A stretch of DNA of 4,503 nucleotides from a virus, in UHGV virus genome UHGV-1976595; one strand, 5' to 3'. The notes under the pieces were generated by a model. That model was not told the origin of the DNA and did no database searches. It saw nothing but the letters and a program-made list of their open reading frames with translations. This document shows, in pieces, positions 1 to 4,503 of the stretch; position 1 is the stretch's first letter; every line of letters starts with the position of its first letter. The position numbers and the translations under genes are program-made.

Positions 1-35
1 CCCCCTGTTTTTCCGAGTAACCCCTAGGAGGTAAT

Positions 36-208: not shown

Positions 209-236
209 GTTAAACTAAATATACATTATGCGCACC
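209..236 (-). other. dif-like Xer recombination site (candidate attP for XerC/XerD-mediated integration)
   Basis: The minus strand of 209-236 reads GGTGCGCATAA-TGTATA-TTTAGTTTAAC. Compared with E. coli dif (GGTGCGCATAA TGTATA TTATGTTAAAT, recalled from memory) the XerC arm matches 11/11, the central region 6/6 and the XerD arm 7/11. A conserved XerC arm with a degenerate XerD arm is the pattern described for phage and IMEX attachment sites. Confidence 0.6.
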
Positions 237-1133: not shown

Positions 1134-1389
1134 TGCAGTTTATGTATTTCACGACAAGCTGATTAATGCTGATGTTTATATGTTTATGGCTCAGCATGAT
1201 GGTATTGCGAAAGGTCAATTGCATGCGTTTTGTAACCGCATGCAGCGTACTGATTTTGCGTTGTATCGCGTAACTTCGTTTGATTTTGAGGGTGAACAGC
1301 TTATTCCGGTCAGCGTTGACCGTGTTTATGTTTGTGAAGCTACTCCGGCCTTTCTGAAGGATTCTGAAAATGCGTACATCGAAGCGTAA
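1120..1389 (+). CDS. Small protein, gokushovirus VP5-like (assignment by position and size only)
   Basis: ATG 1120 with GAGGA at 1106-1110; 89 aa; overlaps the end of the rep gene by 14 nt and the next gene by 20 nt, typical microvirus gene packing. No diagnostic motif recognised. In the same strand and operon-like array as the other genes. Confidence 0.5.
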   Translation: MAHSDAVYVFHDKLINADVYMFMAQHDGIAKGQLHAFCNRMQRTDFALYRVTSFDFEGEQLIPVSVDRVYVCEATPAFLKDSENAYIEA

Positions 1390-1879
1390 GTTCCATACCC
1401 GCTATGACCCGCCACCGTCGCCCGGCATCGAGTTCAAAGAACCCACGATGACCCAGCAGCATTTCCGCGATGAGTGCGACATCAATAAGATTGTTGAGCG
1501 TGCGATAAGAACGGGAGACACGACCGTGTTTACCAGTACTCAACGTGCTGAATTTTACGATGCATCCGCGATTACCGATTATGTGGACGCAATGGCTTTA
1601 ATTGACGACGTTAACGACGACTTTAATAGCCTGCCGTCCGCTACTCGCGCGATGTTTGGTAATAACGTTAAACAGTACGTTGAATTCATGAGTGATCCGG
1701 CGAACTGGGATAAAGCCCGTGAGCTTGGATTGTTGAGCGGCGGAGAGGTTTCGGCGACCGAACCGAAGGTTCGCGAGTCGGAACCTGCTCCGGCGTCCCC
1801 GCGGGAGCGTTCCGGTGCTGATGTGAATAAAGCATCAAATGCGGGTTCTGAACCCGCGAAACCTGCAGACGGCTCCTGA
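1370..1879 (+). CDS. Putative internal scaffolding protein (gokushovirus VP3-like), with a low-complexity Pro/Ser/Glu/Ala-rich C-terminal tail
   Basis: ATG 1370 with GAAGGA at 1355-1360; 169 aa; stop TGA 1877-1879. An alternative internal start at ATG 1448 (MTQQHFR...) has no Shine-Dalgarno. Size and position immediately upstream of the major capsid gene fit a scaffold protein, but the assignment is by synteny and size, not by a recognised motif. Confidence 0.5.
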   Translation: MRTSKRKFHTRYDPPPSPGIEFKEPTMTQQHFRDECDINKIVERAIRTGDTTVFTSTQRAEFYDASAITDYVDAMALIDDVNDDFNSLPSATRAMFGNNVKQYVEFMSDPANWDKARELGLLSGGEVSATEPKVRESEPAPASPRERSGADVNKASNAGSEPAKPADGS

Positions 1880-1887
1880 CCCTGCAG

Positions 1888-1924
1888 CCTGGCACAGTGC
1901 CCTACTTGATGTAACTGTGCCAGG
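1888..1924. repeat. Stem-loop: 11-bp perfect inverted repeat CCTGGCACAGT / ACTGTGCCAGG with a 15-nt loop
   Basis: Read directly: 1888-1898 is the exact reverse complement of 1914-1924. Located in the VP3-VP1 intergenic region, 9 nt after the VP3 stop. Not followed by a T-run on the + strand. Confidence 0.85.
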
Positions 1925-1936
1925 TGACACCGAAAC

Positions 1937-1964
1937 TTACAGGCGGCTCCCACGAAGCCTGTAA
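1937..1964. repeat. Stem-loop: 8-bp perfect inverted repeat TTACAGGC / GCCTGTAA with a 12-nt loop
   Basis: Read directly: 1937-1944 is the reverse complement of 1957-1964. Followed by AAAAA on the + strand, so it is not a + strand intrinsic terminator. Confidence 0.8.
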
Positions 1965-1968
1965 AAAG

Positions 1969-1997
1969 GTGTCAGTTTATACAGTGGTTTGTATAGT
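1969..1997 (+). promoter_or_regulatory. Candidate sigma70-type promoter for the major capsid gene: -35 GTGTCA (1969-1974), 17-bp spacer, -10 TATAGT (1992-1997)
   Basis: Hexamers match the consensus at 4/6 and 5/6 with optimal 17-bp spacing; the predicted start is about 20 nt upstream of the VP1 ATG, followed by a G-rich Shine-Dalgarno (GAGGGGGG, 2014-2021). Pattern match only. Confidence 0.3.
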
Positions 1998-2024: not shown

Positions 2025-3704
2025 ATGAGTAAATTCGGTCGTAAAGTACCTAGTAATGCAAAAAGTCAGCATAATTTTTCAGTAATCCCGAGTGCTAATA
2101 TTCAGCGTTCGGTCTTTAACCGTAGTTCTGGTTATAAAACCACCTTTGACGCTGGTTATTTGATTCCCGTGTTTCTGGATGAGGCTTTGCCGGGTGATAC
2201 GTTCCACCTTAAAACGAGTGTTCTCGCGCGTCTTTCCACGCCCGTGGTTCCTTTCATGGATAATCTACGTCTGGATATTCAGTATTTTTCTGTACCTTAT
2301 CGCCTCGTCTGGGATAACTGGCAGAAATTCAACGGAGAACAGAAGAACCCTGGTGATTCTACGGATTATTTGATTCCGCAGATTACAGCCCCTGCTGGCG
2401 GTTTCCCTGTTGGCTCTCTTGCCGATTATTTTGGTGTTCCTACAGGTGTCGAAGGTATCAGCGTAAGCGCCCTGCCGTTCCGCGCTTATAACCTGATTTA
2501 TAACGAGTGGTATCGTGACGAAAACCTGATTAATTCCGCCCCGCTTCCGCTTGGCGATGAGACGGAAACAGGTCTCGCAAATTTCCCGCTGCGTAAGCGT
2601 GCCAAGCGTCATGATTACTTCACAAGTGCCCTTCCGTGGCCTCAGAAAGGCGAAGGTGTTGAGATTGGTTTAGGCGTTCCGCCGTCGTACTCGTTGAATT
2701 ATCCGGAATATCCGGATGGTTTAGCGTTCTTTACGCAGTCTTATGGCGCCGGCGGCCAGACTGTTGCTGGTACGGGCTATATTGCCCGTAGTGGTCTTGA
2801 CGCCGATACAGGTCTCTATTTGAGCGGTGGCCTTCAGAATGGTATTAACTGGCCTGAATCTCCTGTTCAGGGACGTTATGACGTTATTTCCGGTTTCCTT
2901 CCGGGCAAACCTCCGGTTACTTTGGAAAAGACAGGTGGTGAAGTTGTTGACAATCTCACGATTAACTCATTGCGTCAGGCGTTCCAGCTTCAGCGCCTGC
3001 TTGAGCGTGATGCTCGCGGTGGTACGCGATACATTGAGATTATTCGCAGTCATTTTGGCGTCATTTCTCCTGATGCCCGTGTTCAGCGTCCTGAGTATCT
3101 TGGCTCTGGTTCGTTCGATATAAATATCAATCCCGTTCTTCAGAACTCTGCGACTACCGATGCCAGCCCACAAGGTAACCTCGCAGCTTATGGTGTTTCC
3201 GGTGGTGTTAACCGTGGTTTTTCACATTCTTTTGTGGAGCACTGTTTTGTCATTGGTCTTGTATCTGTCCGTGCAGATTTGACCTATCAGCAAGGCATCC
3301 CGCGCATGTTCTCCCGTCAGACCCGCTTTGATTTCTACTGGCCTGCACTGGCCCACCTGGGCGAACAGGCTATTCTTAACAAGGAGATTTATGCGCAAGG
3401 CAACGCTAAAGATGATGAAGTCTTTGGCTATCAGGAACGTTACGCGGAGTACCGCTATCGTCCATCCCAGATTACTGGTAAATTACGTTCCACAGACCCG
3501 CAATCCCTCGATGTGTGGCATTTAGCCCAGCGGTTCGACTCTCTGCCCGCATTGAATCAGGAGTTCATCGAAGAGAATCCACCGATGAGTCGTGTTCTGG
3601 CCGTTCAGGACGAGCCTCAGTTCATTCTGGATGCATTCTTTGACCTGAAATGTGTGCGGCCTATGCCAGTTTATTCAGTACCCGGTCTTATTGACCATTT
3701 TTAA
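2025..3704 (+). CDS. Major capsid protein (gokushovirus VP1 / microvirus F-like)
   Basis: 559-aa ORF. ATG 2025 follows GAGGGGGG (2014-2021); stop TAA 3702-3704. The N-terminal region (...SVIPSANIQRSVFNRSSGYKTTFDAGYLIPVFLDEALPGDTF...) matches the conserved N-terminal signature of gokushovirus major capsid proteins as I recall it from Chlamydia phage and related VP1s. Its length fits a gokushovirus VP1 with the large surface insertion. Confidence 0.92.
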   Translation: MSKFGRKVPSNAKSQHNFSVIPSANIQRSVFNRSSGYKTTFDAGYLIPVFLDEALPGDTFHLKTSVLARLSTPVVPFMDNLRLDIQYFSVPYRLVWDNWQKFNGEQKNPGDSTDYLIPQITAPAGGFPVGSLADYFGVPTGVEGISVSALPFRAYNLIYNEWYRDENLINSAPLPLGDETETGLANFPLRKRAKRHDYFTSALPWPQKGEGVEIGLGVPPSYSLNYPEYPDGLAFFTQSYGAGGQTVAGTGYIARSGLDADTGLYLSGGLQNGINWPESPVQGRYDVISGFLPGKPPVTLEKTGGEVVDNLTINSLRQAFQLQRLLERDARGGTRYIEIIRSHFGVISPDARVQRPEYLGSGSFDININPVLQNSATTDASPQGNLAAYGVSGGVNRGFSHSFVEHCFVIGLVSVRADLTYQQGIPRMFSRQTRFDFYWPALAHLGEQAILNKEIYAQGNAKDDEVFGYQERYAEYRYRPSQITGKLRSTDPQSLDVWHLAQRFDSLPALNQEFIEENPPMSRVLAVQDEPQFILDAFFDLKCVRPMPVYSVPGLIDHF

Positions 3705-3717
3705 AACCCAACTCTTT

Positions 3718-3740
3718 GGCCTCTTCGGAGGCCTTTTTTT
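3718..3740 (+). terminator. Rho-independent terminator: GGCCTC-TTCG-GAGGCC followed by TTTTTTT
   Basis: 6-bp GC-rich stem (3718-3723 / 3728-3733), UUCG tetraloop (3724-3727) and a 7-T run (3734-3740), 14 nt after the VP1 stop and immediately before the VP2 ribosome-binding site. Confidence 0.75.
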
Positions 3741-3754
3741 CATGAGGTGAAATT

Positions 3755-4503
3755 ATGTGGGGAGCAATTGCAGGTGCTGTAGGTTCCGTTGCCGGTTCTC
3801 TTCTTGGTGCCCACTCTGCCCAGCAGAACGCCGCTCAGGCGAACAAGTTAACGATGGATTTGGCCAAAAACGGTATGCAGTACCGCGTACAGGATTTGCG
3901 AAAAGCAGGTCTTAACCCGATTCTGGCCGTTAATGGTTCCGGTGGTCTTGGTTCCGTCAGTTCTTCCGGTATTCAGCAGGCTGCCCCTGCCGATTATTCT
4001 GGTGCGGTTAACTCTGCCGTTGCCGCGTTCGACGCTCTGACGAAGCGTGAGCAGCAAAAGGTTGCCCGTGAAGGCATTGAGTCTCAGATTGCGTTACAAC
4101 GTAACCAGATTGCGAATAGCGCGGCTGATGTGCGTCTTAAAACGGCTCAGGCTGACCAGGCTATCCAGAGTGCCGATAACATGCGATCGCAGTCGAATCT
4201 GATTAATCAGCAGGTTTTGACCGAGGCTTCTCGTCGTGCCAATATTGAAGCACAGACAGGCCTCAGTTCTGCGCAGCGGATTAGAACACAGTATCAAACT
4301 GTTCAGGACAAGGTTCTGGCTGATTATTTGAATACACCGACTGGTGCTCAATCACTTAAGGTTAATTATGACTCTCAAGGGAAAGGGTTTGTCGGACAAG
4401 GTAATGCGATTGGTAGTTGGTTACGTCGTATTTCAGGTCTTGATGGCTTTGGCTTTCGCGATTCTAATAGTGCTAAGTCCGTAAACCAAAGGGGGGATTC
4501 TTC
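3755..4503 (+). CDS. DNA pilot / minor capsid protein (gokushovirus VP2-like), 3'-partial in this window
   Basis: ATG 3755 preceded by GAGGTGA (3744-3750). The frame stays open to the window end: 249 codons plus 2 nt by hand translation. It is absent from the supplied ORF track because it has no in-window stop. The N-terminus MWGAIAGAVGSVAGSLLGA is Gly/Ala-rich and hydrophobic, followed by ...RKAGLNPILA... and a long Gln/Ala-rich, probably helical, region, as in microvirus pilot proteins. If the genome is circular the frame continues into positions 1-34 and stops at TAA 32-34, giving 260 aa. Confidence 0.85.
   Translation, partial: MWGAIAGAVGSVAGSLLGAHSAQQNAAQANKLTMDLAKNGMQYRVQDLRKAGLNPILAVNGSGGLGSVSSSGIQQAAPADYSGAVNSAVAAFDALTKREQQKVAREGIESQIALQRNQIANSAADVRLKTAQADQAIQSADNMRSQSNLINQQVLTEASRRANIEAQTGLSSAQRIRTQYQTVQDKVLADYLNTPTGAQSLKVNYDSQGKGFVGQGNAIGSWLRRISGLDGFGFRDSNSAKSVNQRGDS

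What the first reader, a model, noticed from the sequence alone, without database searches (positions are those of the whole stretch)
1741..1879. Low-complexity acidic Pro/Ser/Ala-rich C-terminal tail on the scaffold-like protein
The last 45 or so residues of the 1370..1879 product (...SATEPKVRESEPAPASPRERSGADVNKASNAGSEPAKPADGS) are compositionally biased and probably disordered. Disordered tails on scaffolding proteins often mediate transient capsid-protein contacts, and their length varies between lineages. This could alternatively indicate that the true protein is shorter, or that the region evolves under relaxed constraint.
Basis: inference. Interest (0 to 1): 0.2.

Follow-up and report, generated by a model that had tools for sequence, protein, structure and literature searches.

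The report
Disordered scaffold tail over structured DNA
The Pro/Ser/Ala/Glu-rich end of this small phage's scaffolding protein is a real, probably floppy tail that the whole protein family carries, and the DNA encoding it also belongs to the most tightly folded stretch of the single-stranded genome, next to a probable replication-origin hairpin.

Summary
The window is a complete circular Enterogokushovirus-like genome (closest relative: Escherichia phage EC6098). Residues 124-169 of VP3 (nt 1739-1876) form the lowest-complexity, least hydrophobic 46-residue stretch in the phage proteome. AlphaFold2 predicts them unstructured (pLDDT 35-43). "Acidic" is an overstatement, because the net charge is only -2.

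The tail is ordinary for the family. In 103 non-redundant gokushovirus VP3 homologues, tails run 15-62 aa, are rich in P/A/E/S, and are mostly net negative. The protein is not shorter than annotated. Only the last 2-6 codons differ between lineages, through 1-nt indels.

Synonymous divergence in the tail is five times lower than in the VP3 core (dS 0.105 vs 0.51), and dN/dS is about 1. The tail-coding DNA belongs to the most stably folded ssDNA block of the genome. That stability recurs in 23 of 24 relatives and exceeds synonymous-codon permutations in most relatives tested. Covariation support is moderate.

Eight nt after the stop codon lies a hairpin conserved across Gokushovirinae. Its loop carries ACTTGAT, the phiX174 nick-site core, so it is probably the plus-strand origin. 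The function of the tail hairpins is inferred, not shown.

The parts
1370..1879 (+). vp3, internal scaffolding protein gene (169 aa plus stop)
   Evidence: ORF. Pfam Chlamy_scaf E=6.5e-35. 88% and 86% protein identity to the annotated scaffolding proteins of EC6098 and Microvirus mar4.
1448..1723 (+). Helical core of VP3 (about residues 27-118), ending at the conserved E-LGLL motif
   Evidence: AlphaFold2 helices H27-35 to H110-118, with pLDDT 72-88 for residues 70-120. Invariant and near-invariant columns in A3. dN/dS 0.12.
1739..1876 (+). Low-complexity, predicted-disordered C-terminal tail of VP3 (residues 124-169), the finding itself
   Evidence: Composition extremes. pLDDT 35-43. Present in all homologues with variable length and sequence. 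dS 0.105, dN 0.100.
1746..1786 (+). Hairpin Ha inside the tail-coding DNA (AGGTTTCGG...CCGGAACCT, with inner stem GACCGAAC/GTTCGC)
   Evidence: 6 of the 9 outer pairs show changes on both sides and 91.5% of cells are paired (helix 2).
1787..1808 (+). Hairpin Hb (GCTCC.GCG....CGC.GGAGC), encoding the conserved peptide APASPRE; it contains the palindrome CCCGCGGG
   Evidence: Alone it folds at -9.5 kcal/mol, z -3.0. CCCCGCGGGAGCG is unchanged, third codon positions included, in L086, L090 and L087, whose VP3 is 65-73% identical.
1841..1857 (+). Hairpin Hc (GCGGGTTC T GAACCCGC) inside the tail-coding DNA
   Evidence: z -4.55. 6 of 7 pairs have a change on both sides (helix 6). Read by eye from the alignment, different sequences also form a hairpin at this position in L096, L083 and L086.
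1863..1887 (+). Hairpin Hd, which spans the vp3 stop codon (CTGCAG...CTGCAG)
   Evidence: Pair 1866/1884 is C-G in 10 sequences and A-T in 8, and L079 carries a second compensated pair (helix 8). In L083 the hairpin DNA is retained although it is no longer coding. On its own it is thermodynamically weak, z -1.5.
1877..1879 (+). vp3 stop codon TGA, inside the loop of Hd
   Evidence: EC6098-type genomes stop 12 nt earlier because of a 1-nt indel pair.
1888..1924 (+). Hairpin He, conserved across Gokushovirinae (11-bp stem CCTGGCACAGT/ACTGTGCCAGG; loop carries ACTTGAT at 1904-1910); probable plus-strand origin, with the predicted nick between G1908 and A1909
   Evidence: nhmmer hit in 76 of 97 loci. 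96-98% identical in otherwise unrelated microviruses. Stem covariation: 31 double-change cells against 9.2+-2.5 in shuffles. Equivalent hairpins in Chp2, phiMH2K and SpV4. The nick site is an inference from the phiX174 origin core CAACTTG/ATA (my own knowledge).
1923..1931 (+). GGTGACACC box directly after He, conserved family-wide as GGTGACA or GACTGACA
   Evidence: Invariant columns in A4 and A5.
1925..1974 (+). Hairpin Hf in the vp3-vp1 spacer (outer TGACACC/GGTGTCA, inner TTACAGGC/GCCTGTAA)
   Evidence: z -4.5. Helix 11 is 97.6% paired with 2 compensated pairs; helix 12 is less well kept at 77%.
1969..1997 (+). Promoter-like site GTGTCA-17-TATAGT upstream of vp1 (start at 2025)
   Evidence: Consensus scan only, 9 of 12 matches. 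Not evidence of function.

Best explanation
Nt 1739-1876 encode a translated, intrinsically disordered C-terminal extension of the gokushovirus internal scaffolding protein VP3. Every member of the Chlamy_scaf family carries such a P/A/E/S-rich, mostly net-negative tail after the conserved helical core, so it is a family trait and not an annotation artefact. In this Escherichia-associated lineage the same DNA has a second role. It forms the 5' part of a roughly 260-nt run of stem-loops (Ha-Hg, 1746-1995), the most stably folded part of the single-stranded genome. That run contains hairpin He, which is conserved across the subfamily and is probably where the VP4 rolling-circle initiator nicks the plus strand. 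Selection here acts mainly on nucleotides, that is on base pairing and local sequence, and only weakly on amino-acid identity. This would explain why synonymous sites are unusually conserved while the peptide changes about as fast as silent sites. Shown here: translation frame, compositional bias, predicted disorder, family-wide occurrence, suppressed synonymous divergence, conserved thermodynamic structure, and conservation and covariation of He. Inferred: (a) the tail acts inside the procapsid as a flexible, mildly acidic spacer that leaves when VP8 and DNA enter; (b) the tail hairpins act in ssDNA as part of the replication control region, for example complementary-strand priming or presentation of the origin hairpin; (c) He is the plus-strand origin.
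For: Identity and frame. Bias and disorder. Family trait: in 103 non-redundant homologues the tail median is 36 aa (range 15-62), with P 15.8%, A 14.3%, E 12.1%, S 11.5%, and 83% are net negative. Nucleotide constraint, 17 close genomes: identity by codon position is 0.913/0.933/0.755 in the core against 0.894/0.911/0.865 in the tail. Third-position identity in the tail is the highest of 212 46-codon windows genome-wide. Nei-Gojobori estimates: core dS 0.51, dN 0.06; tail dS 0.105, dN 0.100. Structure: region 1720-2030 folds at -71 kcal/mol, z -6.7. In a genome scan the windows covering 1673-1976 have z -3.2, -4.5 and -8.3 against a median of -0.35. The tail-coding block has z -3.4 to -5.7 in 23 of 24 relatives, including lineages whose tail sequence has diverged strongly. 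In 15 of 16 genomes tested, the native sequence folds better than at least 98% of synonymous-codon permutations. Covariation on 24 genomes: 33 pairs changed on both sides against 8.9+-2.2 in shuffles and 11-17 in slid controls. In L083 the Hd hairpin DNA is kept even though it is non-coding there. The VP3 stop lies within -25 to +35 nt of He in 60 of 69 lineages where the hairpin was detected.
Against: With a genome-wide control (MFE helices of every 165-nt window scored on the same genomes), the share of variant pairs that stay paired in the tail is 0.38. That is inside the background range of 0.17-0.55. Only the count of double compensatory changes (7 of 47) and the folding energy stand out. 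Covariation support is therefore moderate, and many variants break predicted pairs. One control block in the VP3 core (1547-1699) also beats its codon permutations, z -3.4, so that test is not fully specific. Low dS with dN/dS near 1 could also arise from recombinational homogenisation near an origin combined with neutral peptide evolution. GC enrichment in the tail sits at codon positions 1 and 2, not 3, so amino-acid composition itself explains part of the stability. No experiment or solved structure covers VP3. No function has been tested for the tail or for the hairpins.
Confidence: 0.68

Rival explanations
1. The tail is only a disordered protein segment. The low synonymous divergence is a by-product of frequent recombination or gene conversion around the origin, which gives a shorter coalescence time for the ori-proximal block. 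The predicted hairpins are then a side effect of GC-rich Ala/Pro/Gly/Arg codons and have no function of their own.
For: dN is about equal to dS in the tail, as expected for a neutrally evolving peptide in a young block. The conserved block extends through the whole spacer next to He. The pair-preserving fraction does not exceed the genome background. Even codon-permuted tails still fold at about -30 kcal/mol because of composition. GC enrichment is at codon positions 1 and 2. Tail haplotypes look mosaic, for example L083 and the P0013 type.
Against: Native tails fold significantly better than synonymous permutations in 15 of 16 genomes. Strong z-scores persist in divergent lineages whose tail sequences differ, such as L086, L087, L090 and L088. 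Double compensatory changes are enriched over shuffles and slid controls. Hd is kept as non-coding DNA in L083. CCCCGCGGGAGCG is invariant at silent positions across lineages with 65-73% VP3 identity.
Confidence: 0.22
2. The structure matters in the mRNA and not in the ssDNA genome. The hairpins at the 3' end of vp3 and in the spacer would stabilise the upstream transcript or tune transcription and translation of vp1.
For: The packaged strand has the same sense as the mRNA, so every hairpin would also form in RNA. A promoter-like site (1969-1997) and the vp1 ribosome-binding region lie at the 3' edge of the block. From my own knowledge, not checked here: phiX174 uses hairpins for mRNA stability and weak termination.
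Against: No hairpin in 1740-1995 is followed by a T-run. No Rfam family matches. He is conserved together with a Rep-type nick motif, which points to DNA-level use. The tools here cannot separate DNA from RNA function.
Confidence: 0.2
3. The synonymous constraint reflects a second, overlapping protein-coding frame in the tail region, on the same or the opposite strand.
For: Open frames exist: ORF 1839-1964 (+, 41 aa) and antisense ORFs 1579-1953 (124 aa) and 1686-1895 (69 aa). The lack of codon periodicity is what overlapping genes produce.
Against: The other + frames carry stops inside the tail in the window. Open-frame lengths and frames differ between relatives, and the 1-nt indel pair near the stop breaks any frame running through it. 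From my own knowledge: antisense genes are unknown in Microviridae, and antisense openness is expected in GC-rich sequence. P0019, which reads the +2 frame, is a deletion fusion in a degraded prophage and not a conserved product.
Confidence: 0.03
4. The annotated ORF is too long, and the real VP3 ends at about residue 123 or 144. The tail would be untranslated read-through.
For: Pfam's model ends at residue 144. The distal end is frame-unstable between lineages.
Against: No in-frame stop occurs before the hairpin region in any of 24 close relatives or 103 family members. Internal indels preserve the frame. A tail of similar composition is universal in the family.
Confidence: 0.02

Closest known systems
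Gokushovirus internal scaffolding protein VP3 (Pfam PF09675 Chlamy_scaf; Chp2 VP3, EC6098 VP3)
   Same: Strong Pfam match. Gene order vp4-vp5-vp3-vp1-vp2-vp8. 88% identity to EC6098 VP3. The tail is present in all members.
   Different: Nothing essential. The window carries the commoner ...KPADGS end and not EC6098's ...KT. No structure or mutational study of the tail could be found (papers not held).
phiX174 internal scaffolding protein B
   Same: Same role assigned in the literature (PMC11281519, PMC11980548): a small helical protein with a long disordered segment that is absent from the virion.
   Different: No detectable sequence similarity (one search found no PDB relative). From my own knowledge, not tested here: in protein B the ordered coat-binding part is C-terminal and the variable, disordered part N-terminal. 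In this VP3 the disordered low-complexity part is C-terminal, though the N-terminal 60 residues are also low-confidence.
phiX174 plus-strand origin (30-nt sequence in gene A, cleaved by protein A at CAACTTG/ATA)
   Same: The heptamer ACTTGAT sits in the loop of the best-conserved element of the genome (1904-1910). The phage encodes a rolling-circle initiator, Pfam REP_ORF2-G2P. It is another cis-acting element packed against or into coding sequence.
   Different: Overall 30-nt similarity is 16/30, no better than chance in this genome. Here the motif sits in the loop of an 11-14 bp hairpin between vp3 and vp1, not inside the initiator gene. Cleavage is untested.
Complementary-strand origins of phiX174/G4 and the multi-hairpin intergenic region of Ff phages
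   Same: A cluster of stable hairpins in ssDNA in or near the main non-coding spacer. In Ff phages the plus- and minus-strand origins sit side by side (my own knowledge; PMC9865509 discusses such hairpins for other small microviruses).
   Different: No sequence or Rfam similarity. Part of the cluster lies inside a coding region. No priming data exist.

Membership tests
Chlamy_scaf / gokushovirus VP3 internal scaffolding protein | Sequence match to PF09675 above the gathering score | tested here: met
   120.6 bits against a cut-off of 25, residues 11-144.
Chlamy_scaf / gokushovirus VP3 internal scaffolding protein | Gokushovirus genome context (with VP1 major capsid, VP4 initiator, VP5, VP2, VP8) | tested here: met
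   Pfam Phage_F and REP_ORF2-G2P pass their cut-offs; Phage_ORF5 is a weak hit (20.3 bits, below its cut-off of 27). Colinear with EC6098 at 91.7% nt identity.
Chlamy_scaf / gokushovirus VP3 internal scaffolding protein | Present in procapsids and absent from virions | not testable with these tools
   Reported for Chp2 by Clarke et al. 2004, cited in PMC11281519. That paper is not held.
Intrinsically disordered low-complexity tail | Low sequence complexity and depletion of hydrophobic residues | tested here: met
   Extreme among 1142 windows of the phage proteome.
Intrinsically disordered low-complexity tail | No predicted or observed fixed structure | tested here: met
   pLDDT 35-43 and no DSSP elements for residues 125-169. 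The alignment is shallow (23 sequences). This is a prediction and not a measurement.
Intrinsically disordered low-complexity tail | Composition and approximate length kept while sequence turns over between lineages | tested here: met
   103 homologues, 15-62 aa, same P/A/E/S bias, not alignable beyond the genus.
phiX174-type plus-strand origin | Conserved initiator recognition and cleavage sequence containing CTTG/AT | tested here: inconclusive
   ACTTGAT is conserved in the He loop across the subfamily, but the full 30-mer similarity is at chance level.
phiX174-type plus-strand origin | Cleavage by the phage initiator protein at that site | not testable with these tools
   Needs a VP4 nicking assay or RF II nick mapping.
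phiX174-type plus-strand origin | Location inside the initiator gene | tested here: not met
   He lies between vp3 and vp1 (1888-1924), while vp4 is at 228-1133. He is therefore not filed as a phiX174-type origin, only as working like one.
Conserved structured nucleic-acid element overlapping a coding region | Suppressed synonymous substitution relative to the rest of the gene | tested here: met
   dS 0.105 against 0.51. Third-position identity ranks first of 212 windows.
Conserved structured nucleic-acid element overlapping a coding region | Folding stability above composition and codon controls, conserved in relatives | tested here: met
Conserved structured nucleic-acid element overlapping a coding region | Base-pair covariation above a phylogeny-matched background | tested here: inconclusive
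   Exceeds shuffles and slid controls. The pair-preserving fraction does not exceed genome-wide MFE-helix controls.

The most novel reading that the evidence does not exclude
The last 140 nt of vp3 plus the vp3-vp1 spacer form the replication control domain of enterogokushoviruses. Hairpin He would be the plus-strand origin, nicked by VP4 at CTTG/AT in its loop. The flanking hairpins, including those inside the tail-coding DNA, would serve complementary-strand priming, origin presentation or packaging. On this reading the sequence of the VP3 tail in this lineage is largely dictated by a cis-acting DNA element, so it is a coding region written over an origin domain. The tight VP3-hairpin linkage seen across Gokushovirinae would then mark a conserved replication-assembly module.
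Probability: 0.35. Interest if true: 0.55.

Novelty: new member of a known kind. Interest (0 to 1): 0.33.

Why it matters
As a protein feature the tail is routine. It tells annotators that the long P/A/E/S-rich end of gokushovirus VP3 is real and need not be trimmed. The more useful result is at the DNA level. Gokushoviruses are among the most abundant ssDNA phages, and I found no description of their replication origin in the searchable literature. This window, and the culturable relative EC6098, offer a precise candidate that can be tested: hairpin 1888-1924 with a predicted nick at 1908/1909. They also offer a neighbouring coding segment whose silent sites appear to be under selection. That matters for three reasons. 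Synthetic recoding of these phages must respect such sites. dN/dS scans would misread this tail as neutrally evolving. It is also another example of very small genomes stacking coding and cis-acting functions.

Tried and rejected
- PDB sequence search with VP3 found no relative, not even at E<=1.
- No fold search was run, because the AF2 model is too low in confidence (mean pLDDT 54.6).
- Rfam scan of the whole window found only a sub-threshold suhB-like match at the vp1 terminator and nothing in 1700-2030.
- A fuzzy-regex scan for the hairpin timed out. It was replaced by nhmmer.
- Overall similarity of 1902-1931 to the phiX174 30-nt origin was tested and is not above chance: 16/30, against a shuffled-genome maximum averaging 17.5. 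I keep only the heptamer argument.
- Overlapping-ORF explanations were checked frame by frame in 22 genomes and rejected.
- I tested whether the block is borrowed from plasmid single-strand initiation signals. The plasmid search returned only two other gokushovirus copies.
- A simple covariation claim had to be weakened after the genome-wide MFE-helix control.
- Papers that might describe the VP3 tail or the origin are not held: Lee 2022, Clarke 2004 and Brentlinger 2002. Full-text searches for the motif or for a gokushovirus origin found nothing relevant. I therefore cannot exclude that hairpin He is already described in older literature.

Full report
**What the window is.** The 4503-nt window is a complete circular gokushovirus genome cut inside vp2.
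- The vp2 frame, starting at 3755, runs off the end and closes at a TAA at window 32-34 when the ends are joined. That gives a 260-aa product, two nt ahead of vp8 at 37-156.
- Gene order is vp8, a dif-like site, vp4 (228-1133), vp5 (1120-1389), vp3 (1370-1879), vp1 (2025-3704), vp2.
- Pfam recognises Chlamy_scaf, REP_ORF2-G2P and Phage_F above their cut-offs. Phage_ORF5 is only a weak hit, below its cut-off.
- The nearest deposited genomes are Escherichia phage EC6098 (genus Enterogokushovirus; 91.7% identity over 90% of the window) and Microvirus mar4 (87%).
- Seven complete E. coli chromosomes carry related prophages between a fimA-type fimbrial gene cluster and hipA.

**Observation check.** The quoted peptide is correct.
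- The tail is best delimited as codons 124-169 (nt 1739-1876), after the conserved ...ARELGLL motif, with stop TGA at 1877-1879.
- P+S+A+G+E make up 70% of the tail and hydrophobic or aromatic residues 6.5%.
- Among 1142 46-residue windows from the five larger proteins of this phage, only the two windows covering the tail reach its entropy, PSAGE content and low hydrophobicity. The bias is real.
- "Acidic" is only marginally true: the net charge is -2 and the core is more acidic.
- AlphaFold2 on a 23-sequence alignment gives pLDDT 35-43 and no secondary structure for residues 125-169. Residues 70-120 form confident helices.
- No solved structure has detectable sequence similarity to VP3.

**Homologues.**
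- All 22 protein clusters found with VP3 carry a tail. Within the Escherichia-associated clade the sequence is well kept, and PAPASPRER is nearly invariant.
- At 57-71% identity, length (about 40-47 aa) and composition persist, but only PPRERE stays recognisable.
- I extracted VP3 ORFs from loci fetched out of viral, metagenomic and genome collections. This gave 103 non-redundant homologues.
- After the (E)(L/M)GL(L/I/A) motif, their tails run 15-62 aa (median 36). Composition is P 15.8%, A 14.3%, E 12.1%, S 11.5%, G 7.7%. 83% are net negative and about 5% of residues are hydrophobic.
- The tail is therefore a family-wide trait whose sequence turns over. The window's 46-residue version is on the long side but typical.

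**Is the protein shorter?** No.
- The frame stays open to the same place in all relatives, and internal indels preserve it (3-nt and 15-nt examples).
- Only the extreme end is unstable. A 1-nt deletion and a 1-nt insertion 24 nt apart make the window end ...EPAKPADGS, while EC6098 and mar4 end ...EPAKT. The window's version is the commoner one among clusters.
- One lineage (L083; P0013/14/22) has a replaced distal tail and an earlier stop. P0019 is a deletion fusion in a degraded prophage.

**The DNA-level signal.** Aligning 17 close genomes shows that the tail lacks the normal codon periodicity.
- Mean pairwise identity at codon positions 1/2/3 is 0.913/0.933/0.755 in the VP3 core but 0.894/0.911/0.865 in the tail.
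- Third-position identity in the tail is the highest of 212 46-codon windows across the genome. The adjoining spacer is 0.904 identical.
- Nei-Gojobori estimates give dS 0.51 and dN 0.06 for the core (ratio 0.12). The tail gives dS 0.105 and dN 0.100 (ratio 0.96). The contrast persists when three divergent genomes are added.
- So the peptide is weakly constrained, while silent sites are about five times more conserved than elsewhere in the gene.
- No alternative reading frame explains this. The + frames have stops, open antisense frames shift between relatives, and the indel pair breaks any frame through the distal tail.

**Structure.**
- As ssDNA, 1720-2030 folds into a row of hairpins at -71 kcal/mol, z -6.7 (individual hairpins).
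- Ha 1746-1786, Hb 1787-1808 and Hc 1841-1857 lie in the tail-coding DNA. Hd 1863-1887 spans the stop codon. He 1888-1924, Hf 1925-1974 and the weak Hg 1978-1995 lie in the spacer.
- In a 152-nt scan of the genome, the three windows covering 1673-1976 have z -3.2, -4.5 and -8.3, against a genome median of -0.35.
- The block homologous to 1736-1887 has z between -3.4 and -5.7 in 23 of 24 relatives. These include L086, L087, L090 and L088, whose tail sequences differ substantially.
- I permuted synonymous codons among identical residues, keeping the protein and codon usage. In 15 of 16 genomes the native sequence folded better than at least 98% of permutations (z -2.4 to -4.3). L115 was weaker at z -1.7.
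- Covariation counted on 24 genomes gives 33 pairs with changes on both sides. Shuffles give 8.9+-2.2 and slid controls give 11-17. Clear cases include pair 1866/1884 (C-G in 10 sequences, A-T in 8) and several pairs of Ha and Hc.

**Caveats on structure.**
- I applied the same scoring to MFE helices of every 165-nt window of the genome. The share of variant pairs that remain paired in the tail (0.38) is within the background range. Only the double-compensatory count (7 of 47) and the folding energy stand out.
- One control block in the VP3 core also beats its codon permutations.
- GC enrichment of the tail (63% against 48% for the genome) sits at codon positions 1 and 2. Amino-acid composition therefore contributes much of the stability.
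- I regard selection on nucleotide-level structure as probable, not proven.

**The neighbouring hairpin.** Eight nt after the stop codon begins He (CCTGGCACAGT / loop GCCCTACTTGATGTA / ACTGTGCCAGG), followed by GGTGACACC.
- It is the best-conserved sequence of the genome. It is invariant from ACTTGATG to GGTGACA in all 24 enterogokushovirus-like genomes.
- It is 96-98% identical in otherwise unrelated microviruses such as the Eel River basin pequenovirus.
- A profile detects it in 76 of 97 loci. An exact 25-mer found it in further metagenome and viral contigs (15 and 23 stretches, with some overlap).
- Across 34 diverse versions the stem covaries: 31 double-change cells against 9.2+-2.5 in shuffles.
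- Chp2, phiMH2K and SpV4 each have a hairpin with a stem of at least 10 bp and TACTTG(A/T)T in the loop.
- ACTTGAT is the core of the phiX174 cleavage site CAACTTG/ATA (my own knowledge). The phage also encodes a rolling-circle initiator. He is therefore a good candidate for the plus-strand origin, with a predicted nick between 1908 and 1909.
- The resemblance must not be overstated. Over the full 30 nt the match is 16/30, which is at chance level for this genome. Unlike in phiX174, the site is not inside the initiator gene.
- In 60 of the 69 lineages where the hairpin was detected, the VP3 stop lies within -25 to +35 nt of the hairpin. In many distant viruses the last VP3 codons (...SVAQ) are encoded by the 5' arm itself.

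**Most likely mechanism.**
- Protein level, inferred: the tail is a flexible, mildly acidic extension of the scaffolding protein inside the procapsid. Composition and length matter more than sequence. It is removed with VP3 when VP8 and DNA enter. The role assignment follows PMC11281519 and PMC11980548.
- DNA level, partly shown: the tail-coding DNA belongs to a folded cis-acting domain around the probable origin hairpin.
- Among possible roles for the flanking hairpins, I consider complementary-strand priming or presentation of the origin in SSB-coated ssDNA the most likely. This is by analogy with phiX174, G4 and Ff phages and is untested.

**Rivals.**
- Hitch-hiking of the tail with a recombinationally homogenised origin block.
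- Function in the mRNA rather than in the ssDNA.
- Much less likely: an overlapping ORF, or a shorter protein.

**Comparison and novelty.** The protein is a clear member of the Chlamy_scaf/VP3 family, and its tail is ordinary for that family. Cis-acting DNA embedded in coding sequence is a known habit of Microviridae. I could not find the gokushovirus hairpin or the synonymous constraint on the VP3 tail described in the searchable library. Key older papers are not held, so prior description cannot be excluded. I rate the finding as a new member of a known kind, of modest interest, with a more interesting and testable side lead: the candidate origin and its structured surroundings.

Noticed in passing
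window 1888-1931: A hairpin with ACTTGAT in its loop followed by GGTGACACC is nearly invariant across Gokushovirinae and some other microviruses. Chp2, phiMH2K and SpV4 carry versions of it. It usually sits just after vp3, whatever the gene order. It is a candidate plus-strand replication origin with a predicted nick at 1908/1909. I found no description of it in the searchable literature.
   Followed up: partly
window 209-236 (and inverted repeat 227-248): A dif-like XerCD site matches the reverse complement of E. coli dif at 24 of 28 positions and overlaps the vp4 start codon at 228. The homologous position is annotated 'dif-motif' in EC6098. Related prophages sit between a fimA-type fimbrial gene cluster and hipA in E. 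coli chromosomes.
   Followed up: partly
window 3755-4503 joined to 1-34: The window is a circular genome linearised inside vp2. Joined, vp2 is 260 aa and stops at 32-34, two nt before vp8 (37-156).
   Followed up: yes
window 2585-2888 (hairpin 2692-2726): There is a second strongly folded ssDNA zone (z -3.4 to -3.9) with a 16-pair hairpin. It lies inside the hypervariable protrusion-coding part of vp1, where relatives are only 36-46% identical.
   Followed up: no
window 3718-3733 plus T-run to 3740: A textbook intrinsic terminator (GGCCTC TTCG GAGGCC TTTTTTT) follows directly after vp1. It is also the only weak Rfam hit, suhB-like and below threshold.
   Followed up: no
window 1798-1805: The palindrome CCCGCGGG within CCCCGCGGGAGCG (encoding P-R-E-R) is unchanged, silent positions included, in lineages with only 65-73% VP3 identity, even where its hairpin partner arm has changed. 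It could be a sequence-specific site and not a stem.
   Followed up: no
window 1580-1640 (VP3 codons 71-90): A second patch of high third-position identity (0.89-0.91) lies in the VP3 core. The block 1547-1699 folds better than its synonymous-codon permutations, z -3.4.
   Followed up: no
L083 3328-3687; proteins P0013, P0014, P0022: A lineage has a 33-nt insertion and a replaced distal tail (...RERERTSESSPKGESEKSANNDAGS) with an earlier stop. The downstream hairpin DNA is retained as non-coding sequence, which suggests recombination inside the tail.
   Followed up: partly
P0019 (E. coli, 122 aa): A deletion fuses VP3 at about residue 89 to the +2 frame of the vp3-vp1 spacer (...LQTAPDPAAWHSALLDVTVPGDTETYRRLPRSL). 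It is probably a decaying prophage.
   Followed up: no
H78 CP057117.1 (4549 bp) and H77 NZ_CP053574.1: A 4.5-kb E. coli 'plasmid' record is in fact a circular gokushovirus genome. A Citrobacter 171-kb plasmid carries an integrated copy.
   Followed up: no
L099 (OLSJ01000077.1, 86.9-kb contig) 8747-9106: A metagenome contig carries a VP3 99.4% identical to the window's, embedded in a long bacterial contig. It is a near-identical integrated copy of this phage.
   Followed up: no
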